Shown: positions 5,101-17,558 of the stretch, piece after piece
Numbering within the stretch: the stretch's first letter is position 1
How the letters are laid out: each line of letters starts with the position of its first letter
Source of the DNA: Deltaproteobacteria bacterium UBA6106
GTDB lineage: Bacteria; Desulfobacterota; Syntrophorhabdia; Syntrophorhabdales; Syntrophorhabdaceae
Assembly (NCBI GenBank): GCA_002428485.1
Contig: DIWM01000014.1
Location: 81,998 to 113,997 of the forward strand
Reading direction: 5' to 3'
Length of the DNA: 32,000 nucleotides
Notes under the pieces: generated by a model
What the model saw: the letters and a program-made list of their open reading frames with translations, nothing else
What the model was told of the DNA's origin: nothing
Database searches by the model: none
Program-made: the position numbers and the translations under genes

Positions 5101-6100
5101 CCCGTTATCCTCTTATATCACCCAGATCCTTACCTCATCAGAAAGGGCTGCCCAGCTCACGCAAAGCCTCCTCACCTTCAGCAGGAAACAACAGATCACC
5201 ATGAAACCATTCTCCCTGAACGATGCTATCGCGAACATACAGAAGCTCCTCAGGCGGTTGCTTACAGAGGACATTGACCTTAAGACCCATCTCACACATG
5301 AAAGGCTGGTCGTTCTCGGGGATGTGAACCAGATCGATCAGGTCGTCATGAACCTCATAACCAATGCGCGTGACGCCATGCCGGTGGGAGGCGTTATCTC
5401 AATATACACTTCCCGTTTTACCATGGACGGCAAGTTTGTCACTATCCATGGTTTTGGAAAGCCCGGGGAATACGCGCAGATCATGGTATCCGATACAGGA
5501 ACAGGGATAGATGAACATATCCTGCCAAAGATCTTTGAGCCTTTCTTCACCACCAAGGCAGTGGGTAAAGGTACCGGGCTCGGGCTTTCCCTGGTTTACG
5601 GGATCGTTGATCAGCACAATGGGTACATCGATGTAAGAAGCAGACCGGACAAAGGCACCTCGTTCTTCATCTACCTGCCGCTGATCACTCAGAGCATTGA
5701 AACAAAAGGGGCTCAAGGCATCAAGGTCGCTTTAAAGGGAACCGAGAAGATCCTCGTAGCAGAAGACAATAAAGAGGTAAGAAACCTTATCAGTATGGTT
5801 TTGACGGAAAATGGCTACACCGTCATCACGGCGGAAGACGGCCTCGAAGCAATCCGCATATTCTCTGAACAGTCCGTGGATATGGTGATCCTTGATGTGA
5901 TCATGCCAAAGATGAACGGAAAAGAGGTGCTCGAATCGTTAAAGAAGCAGCAGCCCTCTCTGAAAGCCCTCTTCATGAGCGGCTATACCTACGATATCAT
6001 CCAGGAAAAAGGCATATCCCAGGAAGGTGTCGACCTTATCCTGAAACCCCTCAAGCCGGATGAGATGCTCAGAAAGGTAAGGGAGCTTCTCGACAGCTAA
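2168..6100 (+). CDS. Hybrid sensor histidine kinase: N-terminal region, 2 PAS, GAF, 3 PAS, HisKA, HATPase_c, receiver
   Basis: GTG start preceded by GGGAG. Repeated PAS modules each end in a DI(T/S)xRK junction: [40 protein letters not shown]-like segment runs [19 protein letters not shown]...[19 protein letters not shown]. The H-box is [11 protein letters not shown], the N-box [10 protein letters not shown], and the G-boxes DTGTGI and GKGTGLGLS. The C-terminal REC domain shows [14 protein letters not shown]...[11 protein letters not shown]. Confidence 0.9.
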
Positions 6101-8232: not shown

Positions 8233-8261
8233 GAAAAAATTCTTGACAAAACAAAAGTGAT
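8233..8261 (+). promoter_or_regulatory. Candidate promoter of the UbiD operon
   Basis: Perfect TTGACA (8233-8238), a 17-nt spacer, then a weak -10 TATTGG (8256-8261), inside a very AT-rich tract (about 8180-8340). An alternative is ATGACA(8163)-N19-TATAAT(8188-8193). Confidence 0.3.
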
Positions 8262-8283
8262 AAGTTATTGGTTAATAATTAAA

Positions 8284-8302
8284 CTATTAAACAGTTTATT
8301 AG
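8284..8302. promoter_or_regulatory. Imperfect 19-bp palindrome, candidate operator between promoter and RBS of the UbiD gene
   Basis: CTATTAAAC-A-GTTTATTAG, with 8 of 9 arm positions complementary. It sits within a cluster of TTAAAC/GTAAAC hexamers at 8279, 8287, 8311 and 8323. Confidence 0.35.
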
Positions 8303-8342
8303 TTGATCATGTAAACGAAAATTTAAACAAGAGGAGGTTATT

Positions 8343-9875
8343 ATGGCTGACAATTATTTAGCGAGCCTCAGGGCCACCATCGACCACCTGAAGGCCAGGG
8401 GGAAACTCCTGGAGACAGATGTGGAGGTTAACCCGGAACTGGAAATGACAGGTATTCAGAAGCATTTCGACGGAGGTCTCCCCATTCTTTTCAACAAGGT
8501 CAAGGGCTATCCCAACGGGAGGCTTTTCACCAACCTGTACGGTGACGGCAACCTTATTGCCGAGCTTTTCGACGCGGGGACCGAGAGGACCTTCAAGTTC
8601 AGGATCCTCGATGCCATCCGCAAACCCCTCCCTCCAAAAGAGGTAAAGTCTGCGCCCTGCCAGGAGGTTGTCATCGACAAGAACATCGATGTCTGGCCTA
8701 TCGTCCCCATGATCAAGCACACGCCGACCGACCCGGGAAGGACCCTGGGCGGGGGCAACACGCTCGCCACCGGGAAATGGTTCTGGGGCGGCACCCACAT
8801 AAGCTACAACAGGATGTTCTTCCGCGGGCCTGATTTCTCCACCTTCCAGATATCACCCGGCTCCCACACCGACATGATCGCATCAAAGTTCTACCGCAAG
8901 GAGCCCATACCCCTGACCATCAACATGGGAGTTCCTCCTGCGTGTACCCTGATGGCAGGCGCCGGCTTCGTTTATACGATCCTTCCTGCAGGATGTGACG
9001 AGCTCGGGATAGCAGGGGCGGTGCAGGGCTTCCCCGTTGACATCGTCAAGGCAAAGACGATCGATGCCTACTCGATCGCACAGGCAGAGTACGTCATCGA
9101 AGGGTATCTTGACACCACGCAGAAGGTCTGGGAGAGCGAACTGGCGGAGCGCGACCAGAAACAGGGCGTCTATCCCTTCCACCCCGAATGGTCGGGGTAC
9201 ATGGGCAAGGCCTATCGCACCTATAAGTTTGTGGTAACCGGTATCACCTACCGGAAAGACAGGCCCATCTACTACCCGCTCTGCGTGCACAGCTATGATG
9301 ACCACAACATCGACACCATGGTGAGGACCGCGACCTTCCTCGAACTGGCGGAGCGCGTCTGCCCGGGGCTGACCGTAGATACCAACATCCCCATGGCAAT
9401 CCCCGACTGGGGCGGCGTGATCTTCCAGGTCAAGAAACGCAGACAGCGGGACGAAGGGTTCGTGAAGAACATCCTCTCTACTGCCCTTTCCTGCTCCATC
9501 GGCGCCCGGATTGCCATCGCTGTCGACCCCGACATCGACATCTACAGCATGGACGATGTGATGTGGGCCATTGCGACCCGCGTCGACGCCAAGGACGATA
9601 TCATGATCGTGTCGCCGGGAGGCGCGGGGCAGACCTTCCAGCCCGCAGAGAGAAGCTCAGCAGGAGAGAAGGACTGGACGCAGACCAATATCAGATTTTC
9701 AGGTGCCATCGCGCTCGACGCCACTGTTCCTTTCAGATACGTGGATGCCTTCGAGAAGGCGAAATACCCGATCGAGGTTGTTGATCCGAAAAAATGGTTC
9801 TCGGACGAGCAGATAGCAAAAGGAAAGGCGCCTCAGGCAGAATACGCGAAACTCTTCGCGAGGACAGGGTTTTAG
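8343..9875 (+). CDS. UbiD-family (prFMN-dependent) reversible decarboxylase, substrate unknown
   Basis: Strong RBS AAGAGGAGG. By manual alignment to E. coli UbiD, these family motifs are present: PILFNKVKGYP, ISYNR (aligned to NLGIYR), PGSHTD, CDELGIAGAVQG, AQAEYVIEGYL, and the C-terminal AIAVDPDIDIYSMDDVMWAIATRVD. The EGPxG(D/E)xxGY motif is diverged to YPFHPEWSGY. Confidence 0.85.
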   Translation: MADNYLASLRATIDHLKARGKLLETDVEVNPELEMTGIQKHFDGGLPILFNKVKGYPNGRLFTNLYGDGNLIAELFDAGTERTFKFRILDAIRKPLPPKEVKSAPCQEVVIDKNIDVWPIVPMIKHTPTDPGRTLGGGNTLATGKWFWGGTHISYNRMFFRGPDFSTFQISPGSHTDMIASKFYRKEPIPLTINMGVPPACTLMAGAGFVYTILPAGCDELGIAGAVQGFPVDIVKAKTIDAYSIAQAEYVIEGYLDTTQKVWESELAERDQKQGVYPFHPEWSGYMGKAYRTYKFVVTGITYRKDRPIYYPLCVHSYDDHNIDTMVRTATFLELAERVCPGLTVDTNIPMAIPDWGGVIFQVKKRRQRDEGFVKNILSTALSCSIGARIAIAVDPDIDIYSMDDVMWAIATRVDAKDDIMIVSPGGAGQTFQPAERSSAGEKDWTQTNIRFSGAIALDATVPFRYVDAFEKAKYPIEVVDPKKWFSDEQIAKGKAPQAEYAKLFARTGF

Positions 9876-9888
9876 ATAAACATATTGC

Positions 9889-9917
9889 GGGACCCTGCAC
9901 GACGCGTGCGGGGTCTC
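9889..9917 (+). other. Stable intercistronic stem-loop between the UbiD and CoA-ligase genes
   Basis: GGGACCCTGCACG acg CGTGCGGGGTCTC. The stem is 11-13 bp with G-U wobbles and a triloop, and no U tract follows. Confidence 0.5.
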
Positions 9918-9944
9918 CTACCATGAGAAAGGGGGTTTATTCTG

Positions 9945-11492
9945 TTGGAACAGGAGAAAAATCAAAGCGTCTATCAAGATTGGTCTCAAATAATCGAGCG
10001 CAACGCTAAAAACTTTACAAATAAAATTTACATCGAAAGCCTGGATCAAGGCAGGGGCGTCACCTTCGGCGAGATGAACATTTACTGTAACCAGATAAGC
10101 GATTTCCTGAGGGGAAAAAAGATTGTTGCCGGTGACAGGGTAAGCCTCATCGGGAAAAATACGATCGAAACGCTTATTATCTATTTTGGGATATTGAAGT
10201 ATGGCGCAATTGTAAATCCCATCTTTTTTGAGGAAAGCGAAAGCAACTTTTATCGCATCGTCAACATGGTCAAACCCAAAATTATCTTCTTCGATGAGGA
10301 TCTGAACCTTGATGCGGCTCAGTGCACGTCGTCGGATTGGATAAAATTTTCGGAGCACGGGACCGGACCGGACGGCGACAGCTTTTTCAGACAGCTCAAA
10401 ACGTACGACCCAATATTTAACGGACAGAATGTAAAAAGGGAGGATGTCTGTGTTATCCTTTATACATCCGGCACAACTGAAACCCCGAAGGGAATACATA
10501 TATCACGGGAAGGTCTCTTTTACATGACCGATGAGATTGTCGACAGGACCGGGATGACGAGTCAGGATAGAGTGCTTGAATACCGGGCCTATAACTGGGC
10601 ATCCGTACAGCTTCTTACAGTGCTTTCCTCTATGCTCAACGGGGCCACCCTTTTTCTCGCTAAAAAGTTCTCCCGCAGACATTTCACTGATTGGCTGAAA
10701 AAACACGATATCACGATCTCTTCAGGCGTTCCTGCCGTCATCAACATGCTTATAAATGAGCCCGTTGGATTGGGAAGGAACAACGTGCCCTCGCTGAAAT
10801 ATATAACCTCAAGCTCGGCGCCGCTGAGCGTGGAAAGTCATCTGCGTTTCGAGGAGCTTTACGGGATCCCTATCCAGCAGATGATGGGAATGAGCGAAGC
10901 GGGATGGATGGTAGGAAATCCTCCCGGCAGACGTAAGGTCGGTTCGGTCGGCCTTCCCATGAAGCACAAGGAGATCAAGTTCCTGAACGAACAGGGCAAT
11001 GAGTGCACGCCTGGCGAGGTTGGAGAGATGGTCGTAGGTGGTAGATCCATGGGGCTTTGCTATGTAAAGGATGACGGCAACACCGAACGGTTCCCCGAGG
11101 ATGGTTTTCCAACCGGCGACTTGGGCTACAAGGACGAAGAAGGGTATATCTATATCACTGGCAGAAAGAAGGACCTGATCATCCGGGGCGGCATCAATAT
11201 CTCTCCCATGGAGATCACATCCCGCGTAATGGAGCATCCTGCGATCAGTGAGGCAGCAACGCTGGGGGTGCCGGACAGTATCTACGGGGAAGAGGTGGTC
11301 TGTTTTGCCGTGGCAAAGACGGGGGCAGGGACAAGCGCCGACGAGATAATAGGCCATTGCAAAAAGACGCTTCCCGATTTTAAGATACCGAAAAAGATTA
11401 TCTTCTTAGATTCATTACCACGGAACCAGCGTGGAAAAGTTGCAAAAAATGATCTCTTAAAACTATTTGAGAAGCAGGGAAAAAATATATAA
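9945..11492 (+). CDS. ANL-superfamily AMP-forming acyl/aryl-CoA ligase
   Basis: The only in-frame start is TTG at 9945, preceded by AAAGGGGG. The adenylation P-loop is ILYTSGTTETPKG. Also present are GDLGYKDEEGYIYITGRKKDLIIRGGINISPMEIT and the C-terminal catalytic Lys motif LPRNQRGKVAKNDL. Confidence 0.85.
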   Translation: MEQEKNQSVYQDWSQIIERNAKNFTNKIYIESLDQGRGVTFGEMNIYCNQISDFLRGKKIVAGDRVSLIGKNTIETLIIYFGILKYGAIVNPIFFEESESNFYRIVNMVKPKIIFFDEDLNLDAAQCTSSDWIKFSEHGTGPDGDSFFRQLKTYDPIFNGQNVKREDVCVILYTSGTTETPKGIHISREGLFYMTDEIVDRTGMTSQDRVLEYRAYNWASVQLLTVLSSMLNGATLFLAKKFSRRHFTDWLKKHDITISSGVPAVINMLINEPVGLGRNNVPSLKYITSSSAPLSVESHLRFEELYGIPIQQMMGMSEAGWMVGNPPGRRKVGSVGLPMKHKEIKFLNEQGNECTPGEVGEMVVGGRSMGLCYVKDDGNTERFPEDGFPTGDLGYKDEEGYIYITGRKKDLIIRGGINISPMEITSRVMEHPAISEAATLGVPDSIYGEEVVCFAVAKTGAGTSADEIIGHCKKTLPDFKIPKKIIFLDSLPRNQRGKVAKNDLLKLFEKQGKNI

Positions 11493-11514
11493 ATAAAAAA
11501 AGAAGGGGGAAAAA

Positions 11515-12510
11515 ATGAAAAAAGATCGTATTTGCATGGGTAAGGTATTTTTTTCTGTTTTACTGATATGTCTGCTGGTAGTATCTATGGCAACCGCAGC
11601 AGAAAAACCGGTGAAGATAGTGATAAGCGGCGGGACTGCAGGAGGGGCATGGTCTGCCGTAACGGAAGGGGTCGCCGAGTCATTGAGACGGAGCCTTCCT
11701 TCAGGCTCTTCAATATCAACGACCACCGGCACTGACTCGACCAATTTCATTCGTCTGGAAAAGGGGTCGTCCGATCTTGCGATCGGCGTCTCGTCAACGG
11801 CCATGAGCGCCCTGAACGGCAAAGAACCCTATAAATCTCCGATGAAGAACATCAAGGCGGTCACCGCCTTGTTCGATGAGCCTTTCCAGTTTGTTATCCT
11901 TAAAAAGACGGGGATCAAGGACTTCTCAGACATAAAGGCAAAAAAATACAAATTGCGCCATTCGCCCAACAAGAAGGGCAATTTTATGGAAATAGTCTGC
12001 GAGAAGATATTCGAGCAGTACGGGTTCGACTATAAGGCGCTGCAAGGCTGGGGCGGCAAGGTCTTTTACAACAGCTATGGGGAATCGATCAACCTGATGA
12101 GGGGCGATAGCCTCGATTCTTTAAGCGGCTGCAGTCCGGTACCGACCACTCAGTTCGTCGAGCTCGGGGGCACCCATGACATAACCATACTTCCCTTGAG
12201 TGAAAAGGTTATCAATTCATTAAATAAGGAATTCGGGACAAACAAAATGGTGATCCCTGCCAGTGCCTATAAATTTTTAAATGCTGACGTTCCAACGATA
12301 GCCGCCAGGAATATTCTTGCGTGCAAGGCTGACCTGCCAGATGATCTCGTCTATAAGATCGCCAAGTCAATCTACGAAAAGCGCGATTACCTCTCCAGCG
12401 TCCACGTGGTCCTGAAGGGACTGAACCCCTCTTTTATGACCTCTACAGGAGGCGTCCCTCTGCACCCGGGGGCAATAAAGTTTTATAAAGAGGTCGGCGT
12501 TCTGAAATAA
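11515..12510 (+). CDS. TRAP transporter solute-binding protein, TAXI family
   Basis: A signal-like N terminus (VFFSVLLICLLVVSMATAAEKP) is followed by the TAXI hallmark VISGGTAGGAWSAVTEGVAESL. The protein is 331 aa and lies directly upstream of a fused TRAP permease. Confidence 0.75.
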   Translation: MKKDRICMGKVFFSVLLICLLVVSMATAAEKPVKIVISGGTAGGAWSAVTEGVAESLRRSLPSGSSISTTTGTDSTNFIRLEKGSSDLAIGVSSTAMSALNGKEPYKSPMKNIKAVTALFDEPFQFVILKKTGIKDFSDIKAKKYKLRHSPNKKGNFMEIVCEKIFEQYGFDYKALQGWGGKVFYNSYGESINLMRGDSLDSLSGCSPVPTTQFVELGGTHDITILPLSEKVINSLNKEFGTNKMVIPASAYKFLNADVPTIAARNILACKADLPDDLVYKIAKSIYEKRDYLSSVHVVLKGLNPSFMTSTGGVPLHPGAIKFYKEVGVLK

Positions 12511-12526
12511 AGAGACGATACTGAGC

Positions 12527-12561
12527 TCCCGGGCCTTACCCCAACGGGGTATTGTCCGGGG
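12527..12561 (+). other. Bipartite stem-loop between the binding-protein and permease genes
   Basis: The outer stem is CCCGG (12528-12532) with CCGGG (12556-12560). The inner stem is TACCCC aac GGGGTA (12537-12551). No U tract follows. Confidence 0.45.
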
Positions 12562-12619
12562 CTTCTGCTCGCTGATGAAGGCAAGTTCCATGAGGAATGA
12601 GCCTTAATGGAGGGGGACA

Positions 12620-14506
12620 ATGACATTTGATTCGGTTATGAAGAAGGCGGCAAAGGTCATTGCGATTCTTGCTACCTTGTACCATGTGTACATCGGCTTC
12701 TTTGGCCTCACCAGGCCCCTTGCAAATTATGCAATTACGCTTTCGCTGTTCATGTGCCTTGCTTTTCTCTACGTTCCCTTCAAGGGGAAGGGGAAAAAGA
12801 TTATCATCTTCGACGCCGTCTTGGCTCTGTTATCGCTGGTCGTCGGATTTTATGTCGTTGCGAATTACCAGACAATATCTGTGCGTCCTACAATGGTAGG
12901 AGAGCTAACCGTCATCGAGTATGGACTTGGCATCCTGGCAATCTTATTGGTACTGGAATCAACACGGAGAACGATCGGAATGCCCCTTGTCTACATCGCG
13001 GCATTCTTTCTCGCATATTGCTACTTTGGAAATTACCTGCCCGGCATGTTCAGTCATAGCGGATTCTCCGGCGGCGATGTCATCGAATCGATGTACCTGA
13101 CGCTGGACGGCATACACGGCACGCCCATAGCGGTCGTGGCAACGCTTGTCATCCAGTTTGTGCTCTTCGGGGCTTTTCTCGAAGCCTCAGGCGCCGCAAA
13201 GTTCTTCGTTGATATATCAATGTCATTGATGGGACGATTGAGAGGCGCTGCGGGACACATCGGAAATTTTTCGGCTGCTCTCTTTGGTACGATGACGGGC
13301 AGCCCGACTGCGAGCGCGGTAACAGTCGGCTCCTTCAGCATCCCAATGATGAAAAAGACAGGATTTACGTCCATATTTTCCGGCGCGATCACAGCCGTAT
13401 CGTGCACCGGCGCCGCCTTAATGCCCCCGGTCATGGGAACGGCAGCCTTCCTTATGGCTGAAATGACCGGTACCCGATATATAGATATATGCAAGGCCGC
13501 TATTTTCCCTGCCATGCTCTATTTTTTTTCATGTTCTCTCATCGTCTATTTTGAAGCGTCCAGGACCGGCATTACAGGGTTCCGGAAAGATGAACTGCCG
13601 AGCTTTGTCAAAACGATACCCATAAGCTTACAATACATGGGCCCGATCGCGGTCCTTATCATACTCCTGATCACGGGATATTCTCCCGCCCTGTGTGCCG
13701 TTGTCGCCTCCTTTTTGATCTTTCTCGCAAGCTTTTTCAGGAAGGCAACCCGCATGAACCTCCGCAGCCTTATCAGTGCGCTTGAGGCAACTGCCAAGAC
13801 ATCCATATCGGTTGCAACATCCTGTGCGTCTGCCGGTATAGTTGTCGGTGCAATAGTCCTGACGGGGCTGGGTGGCAAGTTCGCCAGCATAGTGGTTGCC
13901 ATATCCCACCAGAGCTTGTTCCTTGCGCTTTTTCTGACTATGATCGCTTCTCTCATACTGGGCATGGGGATGCCGCTTCCCGTGGTGTACATCCTGACTG
14001 CCGTGCTTTGCGGCCCTGCGATAGCCACCCTCGGTATTCCTATAATTGCCGCGCACCTGTTCCTTGTCTATTTTGCCTGCATCTCGGCCGTTACTCCGCC
14101 CGTTGCGGTCGCCGCTTATGCAACGGCTGCAATAGCGGAAGACAACCCCGTGAAAATAGGCTTTGTGGGATTCAAATATGCAATAGCGGGGTTCATCATC
14201 CCCTACGTTATGATCTATGAGCAATCGATACTGCTGCAAGGAAGTATCTTCAAAATTGCGATAACGGTTGCATCATGTTCGTTAGGGGTTTTTGCCCTCT
14301 CCTCGGCTGTATCAAATTGGTTATTTACTTCATTGTCGCGCTGGGAAAAGGTATTGCTTTTCGCGGGCGGGGTTTTGCTTGTCTACCCCGAGTTAATTAC
14401 AAGCCTGATCGGCATCTGTTGTATAGCCCCTGTATTGCGTATAAATTATGGTAAGAAAGTCATATTAAAACAAGCGGTGGCAAACAAAACGGGTACCGCC
14501 ACTTGA
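12620..14506 (+). CDS. TRAP transporter fused (4TM/12TM type) permease
   Basis: A 628-aa polytopic membrane protein that is hydrophobic throughout. RBS GGAGGGGG. Its position right after a TAXI binding protein is the standard TAXI-TRAP layout. Confidence 0.75.
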   Translation: MTFDSVMKKAAKVIAILATLYHVYIGFFGLTRPLANYAITLSLFMCLAFLYVPFKGKGKKIIIFDAVLALLSLVVGFYVVANYQTISVRPTMVGELTVIEYGLGILAILLVLESTRRTIGMPLVYIAAFFLAYCYFGNYLPGMFSHSGFSGGDVIESMYLTLDGIHGTPIAVVATLVIQFVLFGAFLEASGAAKFFVDISMSLMGRLRGAAGHIGNFSAALFGTMTGSPTASAVTVGSFSIPMMKKTGFTSIFSGAITAVSCTGAALMPPVMGTAAFLMAEMTGTRYIDICKAAIFPAMLYFFSCSLIVYFEASRTGITGFRKDELPSFVKTIPISLQYMGPIAVLIILLITGYSPALCAVVASFLIFLASFFRKATRMNLRSLISALEATAKTSISVATSCASAGIVVGAIVLTGLGGKFASIVVAISHQSLFLALFLTMIASLILGMGMPLPVVYILTAVLCGPAIATLGIPIIAAHLFLVYFACISAVTPPVAVAAYATAAIAEDNPVKIGFVGFKYAIAGFIIPYVMIYEQSILLQGSIFKIAITVASCSLGVFALSSAVSNWLFTSLSRWEKVLLFAGGVLLVYPELITSLIGICCIAPVLRINYGKKVILKQAVANKTGTAT

Positions 14507-14530
14507 AAAATATTCTCAGGAGGTAAATAA

Positions 14531-14803
14531 ATGGCAAAAGATCCTGGTTTAGGAAGAAAGATCAAGGCAGAGGTTGTCGACCTGAAAGGACAATGCAACG
14601 CAGGCCACAAGGTTGGAGACCAGTTCGATGTCAGTTGCTGGAATACCGGGGGCATGTGCGGCTTTCTCTATCATGCCATATTCCCCACACTCCAGGTGAT
14701 GCAGTTCGACGGGAGCTATCCCTGGGGAACGGATGAAGCGGTTATTCATTGTCCCGACAGCTACAACCTGCTTACCATCAAGTTGTGGAGGGTCAAAGAG
14801 TAA
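14531..14803 (+). CDS. Small Cys-rich protein resembling the uncharacterised TIGR04076 family
   Basis: 90 aa with RBS AGGAGG. The pattern GQCNAGHKVGDQF...SCWNTGGMCGFLYHAIFP...FDGSYPW...VIHCPD...LTIKLWRV matches my recollection of the TIGR04076 signature (C..H..GD.F / G.C / G..PW / C.D). It has four Cys and several His. Confidence 0.55.
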   Translation: MAKDPGLGRKIKAEVVDLKGQCNAGHKVGDQFDVSCWNTGGMCGFLYHAIFPTLQVMQFDGSYPWGTDEAVIHCPDSYNLLTIKLWRVKE

Positions 14804-14826
14804 CAAATAGTGCAACAGGAGGTATC

Positions 14827-15432
14827 GTGAAAAGGATAGTGGTAGGAATTACAGGGGCAACGGCCGTCATCTACGGGATACGGCTTCTTGAGGTCCTGTC
14901 GGAGCTGAATGTGGAGACCCATCTGATCCTCTCCGAACAGGCCAAGAGGAACATATGTATAGAGAGTGATTTCGAGGTCAATACCGTAGAGAAACTTGCC
15001 AGCCGCGTGCATGATATAAAAGATATGGCAGCCTCTATCTCAAGCGGGTCTTTTAAAACTGACGGAATGGTGATCGTCCCCTGCACGATAAAGACATTGT
15101 CTGGCGTTGCCCATTCCTATAACGATAATCTTATCGTGAGGGCGGCAGACGTTGCCCTGAAGGAAAAAAGAAAGCTCGTTCTTATGGTAAGAGAAACTCC
15201 CCTGCACAAAGGCCATCTTGAAATGATGGGCAGGGTTGCCGATCTGGGAGGCGTTATCCTTCCACCTGTCCCTGCATTCTATAATGCCCCGAAGACCATC
15301 AAAGACATCATTGATCACACGGTAGGGAAGATCCTTGACCAGTTTGACATCGACCACCACCTGTTCAGAAGGTGGGAGGGCGTTGAGGATGAGACACAGA
15401 CATCGGGGTTAAATATAGTCCGCTCAGGTTAA
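14827..15432 (+). CDS. ubiX: Flavin prenyltransferase UbiX (prFMN synthase)
   Basis: GTG at 14827 is preceded by AGGAGG. The N terminus VKRIVVGITGATAVIYGIRLLEVL is the flavoprotein fold motif. Also present are MVIVPCTIKTLSGVAHSYNDNLIVRAADVALKE.RKLVLMVRETPL. The 201-aa length is typical of the family. The track ORF start at 14749 is an upstream extension. Confidence 0.88.
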   Translation: MKRIVVGITGATAVIYGIRLLEVLSELNVETHLILSEQAKRNICIESDFEVNTVEKLASRVHDIKDMAASISSGSFKTDGMVIVPCTIKTLSGVAHSYNDNLIVRAADVALKEKRKLVLMVRETPLHKGHLEMMGRVADLGGVILPPVPAFYNAPKTIKDIIDHTVGKILDQFDIDHHLFRRWEGVEDETQTSGLNIVRSG

Positions 15433-15493: not shown

Positions 15494-15522
15494 TTGACAG
15501 AAAAACAGCGTAGTTATATTAT
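15494..15522 (+). promoter_or_regulatory. Near-consensus sigma70 promoter of the GntR-family regulator gene
   Basis: TTGACA (15494-15499), a 17-nt spacer, then TATTAT (15517-15522). Confidence 0.5.
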
Positions 15523-15560: not shown

Positions 15561-16271
15561 GTGGCAGGAAGTAAAATGAAGTCTGTATTTAAGACGGTTC
15601 AAAGAGGAAGGCTCTCCGACAATGTTGTGTTTCAAATAAAAAAGAGCATTATCGATGGCGTATATAAACCGGGCGAAAAACTGCCATCAGAAAAATATCT
15701 TCTGGAAATGTTCAATGTAAGCAGAGGATCTTTGAGGGAGGCCTTGAAATCACTGGAACGACTTGGGTTTGTTGTCATAAAAACAGGCGTATTCGGCGGC
15801 GCGTACGTCATCGACAAGGCAATGCGTTCGTTCTCCAATACGCTTTACGATATAATCAAAATGAACAAGATCAGTTTCCATGAACTTCTGGAGACGAGAG
15901 AGATTATCGAACCCGGAATCGCAGCCCTCGCGGCCGCAAAAAGAACCAAGGAAGACATAAAACAGCTAGAGGCCCTGATTGCCCTGCGGGACAAATCAAT
16001 GCAGGCAAACAAGATTCCAATAATCGTGAATATCGACTGGCATCAGGTAGTGGCGATGGCCTCTAAAAATCAATTGCTCTGTCTTGTGATTGATGCCATA
16101 GCTATGACCCTGAACGACGAATTTAAGAAAATCAGTTTAAGCCTAGAGGACCACCGCGTCATCCTTGATTTCCACAAAAAGATAACCGCCTGCATTAAAG
16201 ATGGAGACGCAAAGGGCGCTTCAACGCTAATGCGTGAGCACATTGGCGATGTACTAAAAAGATTGACGTAG
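15561..16271 (+). CDS. GntR-family transcriptional regulator, FadR subfamily (wHTH plus FCD domain)
   Basis: The wHTH is KLPSEKYLLEMFNVSRGSLREALKSLERLGFVVIKTG. The C-terminal all-helical FCD-like domain carries the spaced His residues DWHQV, DFHKK and REHI. The start could instead be ATG at 15576. Confidence 0.8.
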   Translation: MAGSKMKSVFKTVQRGRLSDNVVFQIKKSIIDGVYKPGEKLPSEKYLLEMFNVSRGSLREALKSLERLGFVVIKTGVFGGAYVIDKAMRSFSNTLYDIIKMNKISFHELLETREIIEPGIAALAAAKRTKEDIKQLEALIALRDKSMQANKIPIIVNIDWHQVVAMASKNQLLCLVIDAIAMTLNDEFKKISLSLEDHRVILDFHKKITACIKDGDAKGASTLMREHIGDVLKRLT

Positions 16272-16443: not shown

Positions 16444-16478
16444 GTGTTTAAAATCTCATTTTTCCAGGAGGGTTGTGT

Positions 16479-17501
16479 ATGAAACATTCAGGGGTAAAGC
16501 TTTTTCTTTTATTCTTCATTGTGTCCATCTGCCTTATTTCTATGCCGAATCTCGCAGGTGCGCAGCAGAAGGCCATCTCGCTCAATTTTTCGAACTTCTT
16601 CCCGGCACCGCACAAAAACAGCATCCTTGCTGACGCATGGTGTAAAGAGGTAGAAAAAAGGGCACAGGGCAAAGTCAAGATCACCTACTTTCCGGGCGGC
16701 ACACTGACGCCTGCGGCACAGACCTATGACAACGTTGTGAAGGGCATCGCAGATATCGGCGAAAGCTGCTTCGCTTACACCCGTGGCAAATTCCCCATGA
16801 TGGAGGTAATAGACCTTCCTCTGGGCTACAAGAACGGGGCTCAGGCAACAAACCTGATCAACGCCTTCTACGCGAAGTTTCAGCCGAAAGAGCTGGCCGA
16901 CGTGAAGGTACTTTTCCTCCACGCACACGGCCCGGGGATTCTCCATTCAAAAGCCCCCATAGCAAAGCTTGAAGATGTGAAGGGTAAGAAGGTCAGGGCA
17001 ACCGGTCTTGCAGCAAAGATCGTACAGGCCCTGGGCGGAGCGCCTGTCGGTACCACCATGCCGGAGACCTATGACGCTCTCCGCACCGGTGTTGCAGAGG
17101 CCGCAATGGCCCCTATCGAGGCCCTCCAGGGCTGGAAATGGGGTGAGGTCGTGAGCTCAACAACCCAGAATTTCGGCTCCGCTTACACAACAGGCATGTT
17201 TATCGTCATGAATAAGGCAAAATGGAATTCCCTGCCGCCTGACGTACAGAAGATCATGGAAGACGTGAGCAAGGAATGGATAGTGAAGCAGGGCCAGACC
17301 TGGGATGCGATCGACCAGGAAGGTTACGATTTCACCAAGAAGAGAGGCAACAAGATCATTGCCCTTTCCAAAGAAGAAGATGCCAAATGGGCAAAAGCGG
17401 TGAAGCCGATCCTTGACGATTACGCGAAGGCCGCCAAGGCGAAGGGTATGCCCGGCGAAGAAGCCGTGAAGTTCTGCACCGACTACTTGAAGACACACTA
17501 A
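16479..17501 (+). CDS. TRAP transporter substrate-binding protein, DctP family (no DctQ/DctM partner in the window)
   Basis: ATG at 16479 is preceded by AGGAGGG. The signal peptide is LFLLFFIVSICLISMPNLAGAQQ. The body is DctP-like (LNFSNFFPAPH...ITYFPGGTL...VKGIADIG). The gene is followed by a strong terminator. Confidence 0.7.
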   Translation: MKHSGVKLFLLFFIVSICLISMPNLAGAQQKAISLNFSNFFPAPHKNSILADAWCKEVEKRAQGKVKITYFPGGTLTPAAQTYDNVVKGIADIGESCFAYTRGKFPMMEVIDLPLGYKNGAQATNLINAFYAKFQPKELADVKVLFLHAHGPGILHSKAPIAKLEDVKGKKVRATGLAAKIVQALGGAPVGTTMPETYDALRTGVAEAAMAPIEALQGWKWGEVVSSTTQNFGSAYTTGMFIVMNKAKWNSLPPDVQKIMEDVSKEWIVKQGQTWDAIDQEGYDFTKKRGNKIIALSKEEDAKWAKAVKPILDDYAKAAKAKGMPGEEAVKFCTDYLKTH

Positions 17502-17528
17502 CAACAATACCTGACAGGTTACATTAAA

Positions 17529-17558
17529 GGGGGACGCCCGCGGGTGTCCCCCTTTTTT
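17529..17558 (+). terminator. Rho-independent terminator
   Basis: GGGGGACGCCCG / CGGGTGTCCCCC forms a GC-rich hairpin and is followed by TTTTTTCTTT. Confidence 0.8.

What the first reader, a model, noticed from the sequence alone, without database searches (positions are those of the whole stretch)
8233..15432. Self-contained uptake, CoA-activation and prFMN-decarboxylation operon (UbiD-like, ANL ligase, TAXI-TRAP, TIGR04076-like, UbiX) with unknown substrate
Seen in sequence:
- Six same-strand genes are separated by only 22-110 bp and sit behind one AT-rich promoter region.
- They are a UbiD-family decarboxylase, an AMP-forming CoA ligase, a TAXI binding protein, a fused TRAP permease, a Cys-rich small protein and UbiX.
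- A FadR-type regulator lies immediately downstream.

Established knowledge:
- A UbiD-like decarboxylase with its UbiX prFMN supplier, a CoA ligase or CoA transferase and a TRAP transporter is the genetic signature of anaerobic phthalate-isomer degradation.
- Examples are the phthaloyl-CoA decarboxylases of Thauera, Aromatoleum and Azoarcus, the ligase-dependent variant in Desulfosarcina cetonica, and isophthaloyl-CoA decarboxylase in Syntrophorhabdus aromaticivorans.

Inference:
- A carboxylated aromatic or unsaturated (di)acid is imported, thioesterified and then decarboxylated on the CoA ester.
- Three things look undescribed or unusual: a TAXI-type rather than a DctPQM-type importer, a TIGR04076-like gene wedged next to ubiX, and a diverged catalytic motif in the UbiD protein.
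- The substrate may therefore differ from the known phthalate isomers.
Basis: partly seen in the sequence, partly recalled or inferred. Interest (0 to 1): 0.72.

Follow-up and report, generated by a model that had tools for sequence, protein, structure and literature searches.

The report
Phthalate-type uptake, CoA-activation and decarboxylation operon
This is a real, conserved six-gene operon in an uncultured syntrophic bacterium that very probably imports an aromatic dicarboxylic acid of the phthalate type, attaches coenzyme A and removes one carboxyl group; its layout copies a known sulfate-reducer phthalate cluster, but its decarboxylase lies in an uncharacterised lineage, so which isomer it degrades is still open.

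Summary
Six + strand genes (UbiD-like, ANL ligase, TAXI binding protein, fused TRAP permease, TIGR04076, UbiX) lie 22-109 bp apart behind a 303-bp AT-rich region, followed by a GntR/FCD regulator.

- **Source:** an uncultured Syntrophorhabdaceae genome. The whole cluster is conserved in related MAGs.
- **Decarboxylase:** matches solved Thauera phthaloyl-CoA decarboxylase at E=6e-160, against 4e-46 for the best free-acid enzyme. It keeps every PCD-type catalytic and metal residue. It falls outside the clade of known o-phthaloyl-CoA decarboxylases (100/100 bootstraps, about 50% identity).
- **Layout:** gene order equals the Desulfobacula toluolica cluster. Ligase, transporter and UbiX are 57-67% identical to it.
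two are ordinary. TAXI-TRAP is the normal importer of these clusters, and the "diverged motif" is shared by all PCDs. TIGR04076 is uncharacterised, but it tracks the transporter, not UbiX.
- **New here:** a conserved promoter plus palindromic operator, also present in Pelotomaculum isophthalicicum JI, whose decarboxylase is 91% identical.

The mechanism is well supported. The substrate isomer (ortho, tere or iso) is unresolved. This is a new variant of a known kind, of moderate interest.

The parts
8243..8248 (+). Candidate -35 hexamer TTGACA of the operon promoter
   Evidence: Invariant in all six aligned variant-A upstream regions, while the surrounding sequence varies. Sequence verified. 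A TATNNG-like -10 lies 17 nt downstream. Function not tested.
8281..8297 (+). Near-palindrome AAACTATT-A-AACAGTTT, candidate operator of the linked GntR/FCD regulator
   Evidence: It occurs once in the window, and only one shuffle in 100 gave even a single match (mean 0.03). It lies 50-65 nt upstream of the UbiD start in L001-L006, L005, L014 and Pelotomaculum isophthalicicum JI (L081), and in L013. It is invariant in alignment A2. Binding by the regulator is inferred.
8343..9875 (+). UbiD-family, phthaloyl-CoA-decarboxylase-like prFMN decarboxylase (510 aa)
   Evidence: Three UbiD Pfam domains. Solved Thauera Pcd 8oz5/8pmk at E=6e-160 over residues 8-509, with AroY next at 4e-46. About 50% identical to PCDs and 24% to E. 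coli UbiD. It lies outside the PCD clade in 100/100 bootstraps. E264, R157, E282, H152, H175 and E220 are conserved.
9889..9917 (+). GC-rich intercistronic stem-loop between the UbiD stop and the ligase start, with no U-tract
   Evidence: Minimum free energy -25.8 kcal/mol for the 69-nt spacer, z=-2.8. Twelve pairs are conserved in six orthologous loci with one compensatory change. Variant-B clusters carry a different hairpin at the same place. Its role, for example transcript stabilisation, is inferred.
9945..11492 (+). AMP-forming (ANL class I) acyl/aryl-CoA ligase (515 aa, TTG start)
   Evidence: AMP-binding plus AMP-binding_C domains. Core motifs TSGTTETPK, FPTGD, GRKKD and PRNQRGK are present. 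Best solved relatives are oxalyl- and malonyl-CoA synthetases at 1e-58, and none is PaaK-type. It is 57% identical to the D. toluolica cluster ligase and 63% to the Pelotomaculum JI neighbour.
11515..12510 (+). TAXI-family TRAP solute-binding protein with signal peptide
   Evidence: TIGR02122, 182 bits against a cut-off of 84. Hydrophobic N-terminal leader ending ...SMATAAEKP. It is 59% identical to the D. toluolica cluster binding protein and 30% to that of EbN1.
12620..14506 (+). Fused TRAP (DctQM-type) permease
   Evidence: TIGR02123, 587 bits against a cut-off of 321. It is 67% identical to the D. toluolica homologue and 37% to that of EbN1.
14531..14803 (+). TIGR04076-family small protein (90 aa), function unknown, possible metal site
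   Evidence: TIGR04076, 52 bits against a cut-off of 33. C22, C43 and C74 are invariant and H26 nearly so. The AlphaFold model has pLDDT 85. No significant solved-structure match by sequence or fold. One family member is fused to DUF362 plus a 4Fe-4S domain.
14827..15432 (+). UbiX flavin prenyltransferase (prFMN synthase), probable GTG start at 14827
   Evidence: NF004685, 269 bits against a cut-off of 188, with the Flavoprotein domain from ORF residue 28. GTG at 14827 is preceded by AGGAGG.
15494..15522 (+). Promoter-like site (TTGACA, 17 nt, TATTAT) ahead of the regulator gene
   Evidence: Best consensus match in the scanned region, 11 of 12. The overall count of such sites is not above the shuffles, so this is a lead only.
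15561..16271 (+). GntR-family regulator with FCD ligand domain (FadR subfamily), probable regulator of the operon
   Evidence: GntR plus FCD domains. A homologous regulator gene is always linked to the cluster: downstream in variant A, and upstream in variant B, L008, L009 and L097.

Best explanation
The region is an operon, controlled by a GntR/FCD-type regulator, for the peripheral anaerobic catabolism of an aromatic dicarboxylate of the phthalate type in a syntrophic Syntrophorhabdaceae bacterium.

**Proposed steps**
1. The TAXI binding protein and fused TRAP permease import the dianion.
2. The AMP-forming ligase makes the mono-CoA thioester at the cost of ATP.
3. UbiX makes prenylated FMN.
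4. The PCD-like UbiD enzyme uses prenylated FMN to remove the free carboxyl group. The product, most likely benzoyl-CoA, is handled by genes elsewhere in the genome.
5. The regulator probably binds the palindrome at 8281-8297, which overlaps the promoter, and releases it when the substrate or its CoA ester is present.

**What is shown and what is inferred**
- Shown: gene identities, conservation of the cluster, homology to solved PCD, synteny with the Desulfobacula toluolica cluster, and conservation of the promoter and palindrome.
- Inferred: co-transcription, the order of reactions, the regulator-operator pairing, and the substrate.

**My split for the substrate**
- o-phthalate about 0.35
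- terephthalate about 0.25
- isophthalate about 0.20
- another natural aromatic or heteroaromatic dicarboxylate about 0.20

The role of TIGR04076 is unknown. A metal-handling helper role is only a guess.
For: **Decarboxylase**
- Full-length match to solved phthaloyl-CoA decarboxylase at E=6e-160, against 4e-46 for the best free-acid decarboxylase.
- PCD-type residues are kept: H152 replaces the canonical Asn metal ligand, as in Thauera H153. R157, H175, E220, E264 and E282 are invariant in all 43 PCD-like sequences. The PCD-specific insertion of about 13 residues followed by FHPEW is also present.

**Cluster architecture**
- The gene order UbiD, ligase, TAXI, fused TRAP, small protein(s), UbiX is identical in D. 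toluolica Tol2. Identities there are ligase 57%, binding protein 59%, permease 67% and UbiX 61%.
- In deeper relatives of the decarboxylase (62-67% identical), the gene is followed by two family-III CoA transferases. In the two loci compared (L092, L093) these are 43-50% identical to the two subunits of the Aromatoleum succinyl-CoA:phthalate CoA transferase. This lineage therefore also works on CoA esters.
- The cluster is conserved across Syntrophorhabdaceae MAGs. These include bins from reactors treating terephthalate-manufacturing wastewater, which contains all three isomers (PMC5147981).
- A 91%-identical decarboxylase with an adjacent ligase of the same family occurs in Pelotomaculum isophthalicicum JI, a cultured degrader of phthalate isomers (PMC10989887).

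**Regulation**
- Promoter and palindrome are conserved.
- A GntR/FCD gene is always linked to the cluster.
Against: - No enzyme of this decarboxylase lineage has been characterised. It lies outside the clade holding every known or predicted o-phthaloyl-CoA decarboxylase (100/100 bootstraps, about 50% identity). It has fixed differences from that clade, including D177 where PCDs have Trp178, two residues after the metal-binding His.
- The window holds no benzoyl-CoA pathway genes, so the downstream fate is assumed.
- Close relatives also occur in soil, permafrost and municipal-digester MAGs. The Syntrophorhabdaceae and Pelotomaculum genes are only 79% identical in DNA. The system is therefore older than industrial phthalates and may have a natural substrate.
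- Promoter and terminator scans are not above chance overall. Co-transcription is untested.
- The assignment of the D. toluolica cluster to o-phthalate rests on my memory of Geiger et al. 2019, which I could not read here.
Confidence: 0.8

Rival explanations
1. Sub-hypothesis A: it is simply the syntroph version of the known ligase-dependent o-phthalate pathway. The ligase is a phthalate-CoA ligase and the UbiD protein an o-phthaloyl-CoA decarboxylase. The 50% identity reflects only old divergence.
For: - All characterised members of the PCD superclade act on o-phthaloyl-CoA (PMC13040137).
- Ligase, binding protein, permease and UbiX are 57-69% identical to those of the D. toluolica cluster, with the same gene order.
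- The wastewater of the source reactors contains 1 mM o-phthalate.
- A separate PaaK-type ligase family, close to the isophthalate ligase, exists in the same communities and could serve the other isomers (PMC9516798).
- The wide occurrence in digesters and soils fits the most widespread isomer.
Against: - The decarboxylase is excluded from the PCD clade in 100/100 bootstraps. That clade spans Beta-, Alpha- and Deltaproteobacteria and an Acidobacteria bin at 62% identity or more.
- Rates are discontinuous. Within the window's subclade the decarboxylase evolves far more slowly than the ligase (91% against 63%, and 83% against 57%). Against D. toluolica it is the most diverged component (51% against 57-67%). 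This looks like a swapped paralogue, not an orthologue.
- There is a fixed Trp178 to Asp change next to the metal-binding His.
Confidence: 0.35
2. Sub-hypothesis B: it is the system for a non-ortho isomer. In that case the ligase makes terephthaloyl-CoA or isophthaloyl-CoA and the UbiD enzyme decarboxylates it. For terephthalate this would be the still-missing anaerobic pathway.
For: - The decarboxylase lineage is distinct from the o-phthalate clade.
- The closest relatives come from Syntrophorhabdaceae bins of terephthalate-wastewater reactors, where Syntrophorhabdus is called the major terephthalate degrader (PMC5147981).
- A 91%-identical orthologue occurs in Pelotomaculum isophthalicicum JI.
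- No S. aromaticivorans UI protein appeared among the 120 best homologues (62% identity or more). UI grows on isophthalate through a PaaK-type ligase (PMC9516798).
- The 2026 review states that no anaerobic terephthalate pathway has been elucidated.
- PMC9516798 reports, citing Nobu et al. [quoted passage not shown]
Against: - The genes meant by Nobu et al. could be the PaaK-type or IPCD-type ones. I could not read that paper.
- The ligase and transporter resemble those of the presumed o-phthalate cluster of D. toluolica.
- Relatives occur in soils and permafrost, where terephthalate is unlikely.
- The absence from strain UI is inferred from a truncated hit list, not from its genome.
Confidence: 0.45
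3. Sub-hypothesis C: the natural substrate is not a benzenedicarboxylate. It would be another aromatic or heteroaromatic di- or tricarboxylate, for example a pyridine dicarboxylate or trimellitate. Any phthalate use would be a side activity.
For: - DNA divergence of 21% between hosts, despite 91% protein identity, shows that the system predates industrial phthalates.
- It occurs in soil and permafrost MAGs.
- In Desulfosporosinus burensis a 65%-identical homologue lies beside a quinolinate-phosphoribosyltransferase-like gene and TctABC transporters.
- The reactor wastewater also contains 1 mM trimellitate.
Against: - No direct evidence for any such substrate.
- All functional knowledge of the superclade concerns phthaloyl-CoA.
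- The known hosts are phthalate-isomer degraders.
Confidence: 0.2
4. The genes are neighbours without a common function. For example, the UbiD/UbiX pair could be a free-acid (de)carboxylase and the ligase a fatty-acid ligase, merely adjacent.
For: - NCBIfam's best hits for the ligase are generic 'long-chain-fatty-acid-CoA ligase' models. The UbiD protein's best hit is VdcC.
- The promoter and terminator scan is not above chance.
Against: - All those NCBIfam hits are far below their cut-offs: 321 against 476 for the ligase, and 183 against 650 for VdcC.
- The six genes stay together, in order, across Syntrophorhabdaceae variants whose proteins have diverged to 56-92%.
- The same UbiD-ligase pair recurs in a Firmicute and in D. 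toluolica.
- The solved-structure match to PCD is 114 orders of magnitude better than to any free-acid decarboxylase.
Confidence: 0.04

Closest known systems
Ligase-dependent phthalate cluster of sulfate reducers: Desulfosarcina cetonica PCL/PCD (characterised, Geiger et al. 2019, cited in PMC9516798 and PMC13040137), and the homologous cluster seen here in Desulfobacula toluolica Tol2 (L082/L083)
   Same: - Identical gene order: UbiD, ANL ligase, TAXI binding protein, fused TRAP permease, small protein(s), UbiX.
- Ligase 57%, binding protein 59%, permease 67% and UbiX 61% identical.
- Same ATP-dependent activation logic.
   Different: - The decarboxylase is only 51% identical and lies outside the PCD clade, whereas the D. 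toluolica enzyme is 70% identical to Thauera Pcd.
- The small-protein slot holds TIGR04076 instead of PEBP plus Usp.
- The regulator is GntR/FCD, whereas a LysR gene lies upstream in D. toluolica.
- The D. toluolica copies are flanked by transposases; the window's cluster is not.
- The D. cetonica sequences themselves could not be compared.
Phthaloyl-CoA decarboxylase with succinyl-CoA:phthalate CoA transferase of denitrifiers (Thauera chlorobenzoica Pcd, PDB 8oz5/8p02/8pmk; Aromatoleum aromaticum EbN1 plasmid 2)
   Same: - Same enzyme superclade, with a full-length alignment.
- Same catalytic and metal residues and the same PCD-specific insertion.
- UbiX and a TAXI-TRAP importer sit in the cluster.
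   Different: - 49% identity.
- Activation is by an ATP-dependent ligase, not a CoA transferase.
- The TAXI binding protein is only 30% identical.
- Fixed substitutions D130/E131, D177/W178, S265/T267 and A469/D473.
Isophthalate system of Syntrophorhabdus aromaticivorans UI (IPCL SynarDRAFT_0375 / WP_038002235 and IPCD WP_028893368)
   Same: - Same host family.
- Same strategy: ATP-dependent ligase, then UbiD-type decarboxylation of the CoA ester with a UbiX partner (PMC9516798).
   Different: - IPCL is a PaaK-type ligase of 49.6 kDa. The window's ligase is a 515-aa enzyme whose solved relatives are oxalyl-, malonyl- and fatty-acyl-CoA synthetases, with no PaaK match.
- No UI protein was among the 120 best decarboxylase homologues.
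- The IPCD sequence itself could not be obtained, so its distance is unknown.

Membership tests
UbiD family of prFMN-dependent (de)carboxylases | Three-domain UbiD architecture (UbiD_N, UbiD, UbiD_C) | tested here: met
   All three Pfam domains are above their cut-offs.
UbiD family of prFMN-dependent (de)carboxylases | Conserved Glu-Arg-Glu/Asp catalytic network and the metal/phosphate-binding His and Glu | tested here: met
   E264, R157 and E282 align with E. coli E285 and D290 and with the Arg of the N-x-G-x-Y-R motif. H175 and E220 align with E. coli H210 and E241. All are invariant in the 43 PCD-like sequences.
UbiD family of prFMN-dependent (de)carboxylases | Bound prenylated FMN supplied by UbiX | not testable with these tools
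   A UbiX gene is in the operon. Cofactor binding needs biochemistry.
Phthaloyl-CoA decarboxylase (PCD, o-phthaloyl-CoA) | Full-length close similarity to a characterised PCD, better than to any other UbiD subfamily | tested here: met
   8oz5/8pmk at E=6e-160 over residues 8-509, with AroY next at 4e-46.
Phthaloyl-CoA decarboxylase (PCD, o-phthaloyl-CoA) | PCD-type sequence signatures: His in place of the Asn metal ligand, the insertion of about 13 residues, and FHPEW | tested here: met
   H152 equals Thauera H153. The insertion and FHPEWSGYMGKAY are present.
Phthaloyl-CoA decarboxylase (PCD, o-phthaloyl-CoA) | Placement inside the monophyletic group that holds the characterised o-phthaloyl-CoA decarboxylases | tested here: not met
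   The PCD clade (Thauera, Aromatoleum, D. toluolica and others, 62-95% identical to one another) excludes the window protein in 100/100 NJ bootstraps. Identity to it is 47-52%.
Phthaloyl-CoA decarboxylase (PCD, o-phthaloyl-CoA) | Genomic linkage to a CoA-activating enzyme, UbiX and a TAXI-TRAP importer | tested here: met
   Compare.
Phthaloyl-CoA decarboxylase (PCD, o-phthaloyl-CoA) | Decarboxylation of o-phthaloyl-CoA to benzoyl-CoA | not testable with these tools
   Requires an enzyme assay.
Phthalate-CoA ligase type (ANL class I ligase of sulfate-reducer phthalate clusters) | ANL core motifs, including the catalytic Lys of motif A10 | tested here: met
   TSGTTETPK (174), FPTGD (388), GRKKD (406) and PRNQRGK (492). 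Pfam domains are present.
Phthalate-CoA ligase type (ANL class I ligase of sulfate-reducer phthalate clusters) | Same ligase subfamily as the ligase encoded next to a PCD-clade decarboxylase in a sulfate reducer | tested here: met
   57% identical to D. toluolica P0262. The Pelotomaculum JI neighbour ligase is 69% identical to it. Ligases next to alphaproteobacterial PCDs are only 36-40% identical.
Phthalate-CoA ligase type (ANL class I ligase of sulfate-reducer phthalate clusters) | Similarity to the biochemically characterised D. cetonica PCL (JCM12296_RS19390) | not tested
Isophthalate system IPCL/IPCD of S. aromaticivorans | PaaK-type (phenylacetate-CoA-ligase-like) ligase | tested here: not met
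   No PaaK family or structure is among the hits. The best are oxalyl-, malonyl- and fatty-acyl-CoA synthetases. IPCL is described as PaaK-like in PMC9516798.
Isophthalate system IPCL/IPCD of S. aromaticivorans | Orthology of the decarboxylase to IPCD (WP_028893368) | not tested
The primer-based scan gave only chance hits.
TAXI-TRAP transporter | TAXI solute-binding protein plus a single fused permease | tested here: met
   TIGR02122 at 182 against 84, and TIGR02123 at 587 against 321. A signal peptide is present.
UbiX flavin prenyltransferase | Match to the curated UbiX subfamily model above its cut-off | tested here: met
   NF004685 at 269 against 188, and TIGR00421 at 255 against 109.
TIGR04076 family | Match to TIGR04076 above its cut-off | tested here: met
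   52.2 bits against a cut-off of 33. The family has 733 representative clusters, as single, 2x and 4x repeat forms.
GntR family, FadR (FCD) subfamily regulator | N-terminal GntR winged helix plus C-terminal FCD domain | tested here: met
   PF00392 and PF07729 are above their cut-offs. No equivalog model reaches its cut-off.

The most novel reading that the evidence does not exclude
The cluster encodes the still-unidentified anaerobic terephthalate pathway of methanogenic syntrophs: terephthalate uptake, a terephthalate-CoA ligase and a terephthaloyl-CoA decarboxylase. Its decarboxylase lineage is then a sister group to the o-phthaloyl-CoA decarboxylases, tuned to a para (or meta) carboxyl group. 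TIGR04076 would be a new accessory factor of this lineage.
Probability: 0.25. Interest if true: 0.7.

Novelty: new variant of a known kind. Interest (0 to 1): 0.45.

Why it matters
**The open question.** Phthalate isomers are mass-produced plastic monomers and plasticiser residues. According to a 2026 review (PMC13040137), the anaerobic route is solved for o-phthalate, only the ligase has been biochemically characterised for isophthalate, and nothing is solved for terephthalate.

**What this cluster offers.** It is a compact set of candidate genes that can be expressed directly. It comes from the organisms that dominate terephthalate-wastewater reactors. Its decarboxylase belongs to an uncharacterised lineage that also occurs in Pelotomaculum isophthalicicum, Desulfosporosinus, Chloroflexi and Acidobacteria.

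**Possible outcomes.**
- If it acts on a non-ortho isomer, it would reveal how the prFMN active site is re-shaped for a differently placed carboxyl group. It would also give markers for anaerobic degradation of PET monomers.
- If it acts on o-phthalate, it extends the known pathway to syntrophs. It would also show that the enzyme family is older and more diverse than the xenobiotic-adaptation story suggests.

**Regulation.** The conserved operator and GntR/FCD pair could serve as a biosensor part.

Tried and rejected
**Getting the isophthalate cluster of strain UI**
- I searched the published IPCL primer in the window and in all loci and found no match.
- I then scanned metagenome contigs with it. 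The three hits carried no UbiD, UbiX or ligase and are chance 19-mer matches.
- IPCD (WP_028893368) and D. cetonica PCL/PCD could therefore not be placed in the trees.

**Papers not held**
- Junghare 2019 (ISME J).
- Nobu 2017 (Environ Microbiol).
- Lykidis 2011, Nobu 2015 (ISME J) and Qiu 2004.
- The Pcd structure paper did not turn up in a search.
- What I say about Geiger 2019 predicting phthalate degradation in D. toluolica, and about Qiu 2006, is from memory.

**Fold libraries**
- Foldseek against the PDB gave nothing significant for TIGR04076. The best hit was XdhC-like 3on5 at E=0.13 and TM 0.53.

**Ideas rejected**
I replaced it with a Kimura-distance NJ bootstrap.
- TIGR04076 as a specific partner of UbiX: rejected.
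- A recent, xenobiotic-era horizontal transfer between Syntrophorhabdaceae and Pelotomaculum: rejected, because DNA identity is only 79%.
- A benzoyl-CoA pathway in the flanks: absent.
- The wider 'sister clade' as a clean monophyletic group: only 26/100 bootstraps. I treat it as a possible grade and rely only on exclusion from the PCD clade.

Full report
**1. The observation**

The six + strand ORFs are present as described, and each family assignment holds:
- 8343-9875 has the three UbiD domains.
- 9945-11492 is an AMP-binding (ANL) ligase.
- 11515-12510 is a TAXI solute-binding protein (TIGR02122).
- 12620-14506 is a fused TRAP permease (TIGR02123).
- 14531-14803 is a TIGR04076 protein.
- The last gene is UbiX.
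- 15561-16271, immediately downstream, is a GntR/FCD regulator.

The gaps between the genes are 69, 22, 109, 24 and 26 bp. The UbiX gene most likely starts at GTG 14827, behind an AGGAGG ribosome-binding site, not at the listed TTG 14749. The 303-bp upstream region is 32% GC against 50% for the window. The flanks encode cytochromes, a PAS sensor kinase and BipA upstream. Downstream they encode an orphan DctP protein, a ClC channel, a HAD hydrolase and glycogen/trehalose genes. There are no benzoyl-CoA pathway genes, so the cluster is a self-contained peripheral module.

**2. Source and conservation**

The proteins match uncultured Syntrophorhabdaceae MAGs exactly or nearly so. Named relatives include bins PtaU1.Bin058, PtaB.Bin047, PtaU1.Bin034 and PtaU1.Bin153. 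Reactor U1 treats synthetic terephthalate-manufacturing (PTA) wastewater. The full-scale PTA wastewater described in the same paper contains 4.5 mM terephthalate, 2.1 mM isophthalate, 1.0 mM o-phthalate and 1.0 mM trimellitate (PMC5147981). Other relatives come from municipal digesters, soils and permafrost.

The cluster occurs in two variants:
- **Variant A:** BipA upstream and the regulator downstream (L001-L004, L006).
- **Variant B:** the regulator upstream, with the decarboxylase 90-92%, the ligase 61-63% and the binding protein 78% identical to the window (L005, L007, L014).

L097 is a further variant, with the decarboxylase at 83%.

**3. The decarboxylase**

Against solved structures, the best match by far is Thauera chlorobenzoica phthaloyl-CoA decarboxylase (8oz5, 8pmk), at E=6e-160 over residues 8-509. 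Protocatechuate decarboxylase AroY follows at 4e-46. Fdc1 and E. coli UbiD score around 1e-17 and 1e-14.

A tree of 45 sequences with bootstraps shows the following:
- The characterised and predicted o-phthaloyl-CoA decarboxylases form a clade supported 100/100. Its members are 62-95% identical to one another. It includes Thauera, Aromatoleum EbN1 WP_011255033, Desulfobacula toluolica, a Desulfobacteraceae bin and many Alphaproteobacteria.
- The window protein is outside that clade, at 47-52% identity.
- The window protein forms a 100/100 subclade with other Syntrophorhabdaceae and with Pelotomaculum isophthalicicum JI (91%, WP_277445603).
- Next come relatives at 62-73% from Chloroflexi, Acidobacteria, Dehalococcoidia and Desulfosporosinus burensis.
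- Monophyly of that wider group is weak (26/100), so it may be a grade.

Four alignment columns are fixed differently between the two groups. One is D177 in the window where PCDs have Trp178, two residues after the metal-binding His.

**4. The 'diverged motif'**

The window's THISYNR and FHPEWSGYMGKAY segments are the same as in Thauera, Aromatoleum and D. toluolica PCD, including an insertion of about 13 residues relative to E. coli UbiD. The catalytic residues E264, R157 and E282 are invariant in all 43 PCD-like sequences, as are the ligands H175 and E220. H152 replaces the canonical Asn, exactly as Thauera H153 does. That enzyme is described as Fe2+- and K+-dependent in the title of Mergelsberg et al. 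2017, cited in PMC9516798. The divergence is therefore a trait of the whole PCD group and not of this protein.

**5. Architecture compared with known clusters**

*Aromatoleum aromaticum EbN1.* On plasmid 2 the PCD cluster reads UbiX, PCD, two CoA-transferase genes, IS5, TAXI binding protein, fused TRAP permease. The 2026 review describes TAXI-TRAP as the o-phthalate importer of denitrifiers (PMC13040137). A TAXI importer is therefore normal.

*Desulfobacula toluolica Tol2.* The ligase search found this organism's 'LcfB2' at 57% identity. Its context, present twice and flanked by transposases, is UbiD, ligase, TAXI, fused TRAP, PEBP, Usp, UbiX. That is the window's gene order. From memory, Geiger et al. 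2019 predicted phthalate degradation for this organism from the Desulfosarcina cetonica PCL/PCD system. PMC9516798 and PMC13040137 confirm the D. cetonica ligase-dependent pathway.

*Component identities, window against D. toluolica:*

| Component | Identity |
|---|---|
| Ligase | 57% |
| Binding protein | 59% |
| Permease | 67% |
| UbiX | 61% |
| Decarboxylase | 51% |

Within the window's own subclade the decarboxylase is the slowest-evolving part. It is 91% identical to JI against 63% for the ligase, and 83% to L097 against 57%. This discontinuity suggests that the same ligase/transporter/UbiX module is combined with two different, anciently separated decarboxylase lineages.

*Ligase families.* The ligases of the window, JI, L005, L008, L009, L097 and D. 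toluolica form one family at 56-82% identity. Those beside alphaproteobacterial PCDs are only 36-40% identical.

*Deeper relatives.* In relatives of the window's decarboxylase at 62-67% identity, the gene is followed by two family-III CoA transferases. In the two loci compared (L092, L093) these are 43-50% identical to the two subunits of the Aromatoleum succinyl-CoA:phthalate transferase. This lineage is thus also a CoA-ester decarboxylase system.

**6. Relation to the isophthalate system**

The characterised S. aromaticivorans UI system uses IPCL, a PaaK-type ligase of 49.6 kDa, with IPCD (WP_028893368) (PMC9516798; PMC7976604). The window's ligase is not PaaK-type. No UI protein was among the 120 best decarboxylase homologues, so this is a different cluster.

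PaaK-type IPCL relatives are also reported from the terephthalate community. Those communities therefore carry at least two cluster types. I could not obtain the IPCD sequence.

**7. Regulation**

Alignment of six variant-A upstream regions shows a footprint:
- an invariant TTGACA at 8243-8248;
- an invariant near-palindrome AAACTATT-A-AACAGTTT at 8281-8297;
- the AGGAGG ribosome-binding site.

The palindrome is unique in the window, with a chance expectation of 0.03. It recurs 50-65 nt upstream of the decarboxylase start in variants A and B and in P. isophthalicicum JI.

A GntR/FCD gene is always linked to the cluster. The palindrome has a GT...AC-type core and overlaps the expected transcription start. 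I therefore propose it as the regulator's operator. This is inference. The regulator has its own promoter-like site, matching 11 of 12 positions, at 15494-15522.

A 12-bp GC-rich stem-loop without a U-tract lies between the decarboxylase and the ligase (9889-9917). It is conserved with one compensatory change. It could raise the relative level of decarboxylase transcript.

**8. TIGR04076**

- **Residues and structure:** the 90-aa protein has three invariant Cys and a near-invariant His and a confident model at pLDDT 85. It has no significant solved relative.
- **Family:** 733 representative clusters, including 2x and 4x tandem forms. One member is fused to DUF362 plus a 4Fe-4S domain.
- **Context:** relatives at 53-58% identity lie beside GAF-domain genes with no UbiD or UbiX nearby. 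In L097 the gene follows the permease with no UbiX after it.

It is a conserved but unexplained accessory of this cluster type. A metal-related role is only a guess.

**9. Age**

The window and JI decarboxylase genes are 78.7% identical in DNA but 91% in protein. The cross-phylum transfer is therefore old and the protein is under strong purifying selection. This argues that the system predates industrial phthalates. The decarboxylase gene also has higher third-position GC (0.75) than its neighbours (0.57-0.62), in both hosts.

**10. Verdict**

- **Mechanism:** import, ATP-dependent CoA activation and prFMN-dependent decarboxylation of the CoA ester is well supported (confidence 0.8).
- **Substrate:** this cannot be fixed from sequence. 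The homology of ligase and transporter to the D. toluolica cluster favours o-phthalate. The separate decarboxylase lineage and its hosts favour terephthalate or isophthalate. The age and the soil distribution leave room for a natural dicarboxylate.
- **Novelty:** it is a new variant of a known kind. It is of moderate interest, mainly as a directly testable candidate for the unresolved anaerobic terephthalate/isophthalate chemistry.

Noticed in passing
window 16473-17555: An orphan DctP-type TRAP solute-binding protein (342 aa) with no DctQ/DctM genes. It is followed by the strongest terminator-like hairpin of the region (17526-17555, 13-bp stem). It is conserved next to the regulator in variant-A loci only.
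   Followed up: partly
window 9889-9917: A conserved 12-bp GC-rich stem-loop without a U-tract between the decarboxylase and ligase genes. Variant-B clusters have a different hairpin at the same position. It may be a transcript-stability or processing element.
   Followed up: partly
window 8343-9875 and L081 1911-3443: The decarboxylase gene has much higher third-position GC (0.75, and 0.73 in Pelotomaculum JI) than the other cluster genes (0.57-0.62). DNA identity between the two hosts is 79% against 91% protein identity.
   Followed up: partly
L082 17278-19953 (Desulfobacula toluolica Tol2): Directly after the phthalate-type cluster lies a methyl-accepting chemotaxis protein carrying a TAXI-like (NMT1_3) sensor domain. 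That domain resembles the cluster's binding-protein gene at DNA level, so it may be a chemoreceptor for the same substrate. The whole cluster is duplicated and flanked by transposases.
   Followed up: no
L091 7930-21548 (Desulfosporosinus burensis): A 65%-identical decarboxylase sits between succinyl-CoA synthetase genes and two CoA transferases. These are followed by a quinolinate-phosphoribosyltransferase-like gene and two TctABC-type transporters. This hints at pyridine- or benzene-dicarboxylate use.
   Followed up: no
L012 208-5915 (Desulfotomaculaceae MAG): The 91%-identical decarboxylase is preceded by a BenE-family transporter fragment, UbiX, a DRTGG-domain protein and a PAS histidine kinase instead of a TAXI-TRAP system. 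The same enzyme is thus paired with a different importer and regulator.
   Followed up: partly
L088/L089 (Aromatoleum aromaticum EbN1 plasmid 2, record 68783-81140): There are two UbiX-PCD gene pairs that are 99% identical. Between them lie a distant third UbiD (WP_011255029, 23-25% identical) beside an ABC transporter, a porin and a DMT transporter. Many alphaproteobacterial loci likewise pair a PCD-clade gene with a UbiD that is 26-28% identical to the window's decarboxylase.
   Followed up: no
window 2168-6100: A 1310-aa multi-PAS/GAF hybrid sensor histidine kinase with a receiver domain lies two genes upstream of the cluster. Its homologues in related MAGs are only 45-78% identical, far less conserved than the neighbouring BipA. 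No link to the operon was examined.
   Followed up: no
P0433 (TIGR04076 family member, 654 aa): Three TIGR04076 repeats are fused to DUF362 and a 4Fe-4S ferredoxin domain. This is the only functional hint found for this family.
   Followed up: partly
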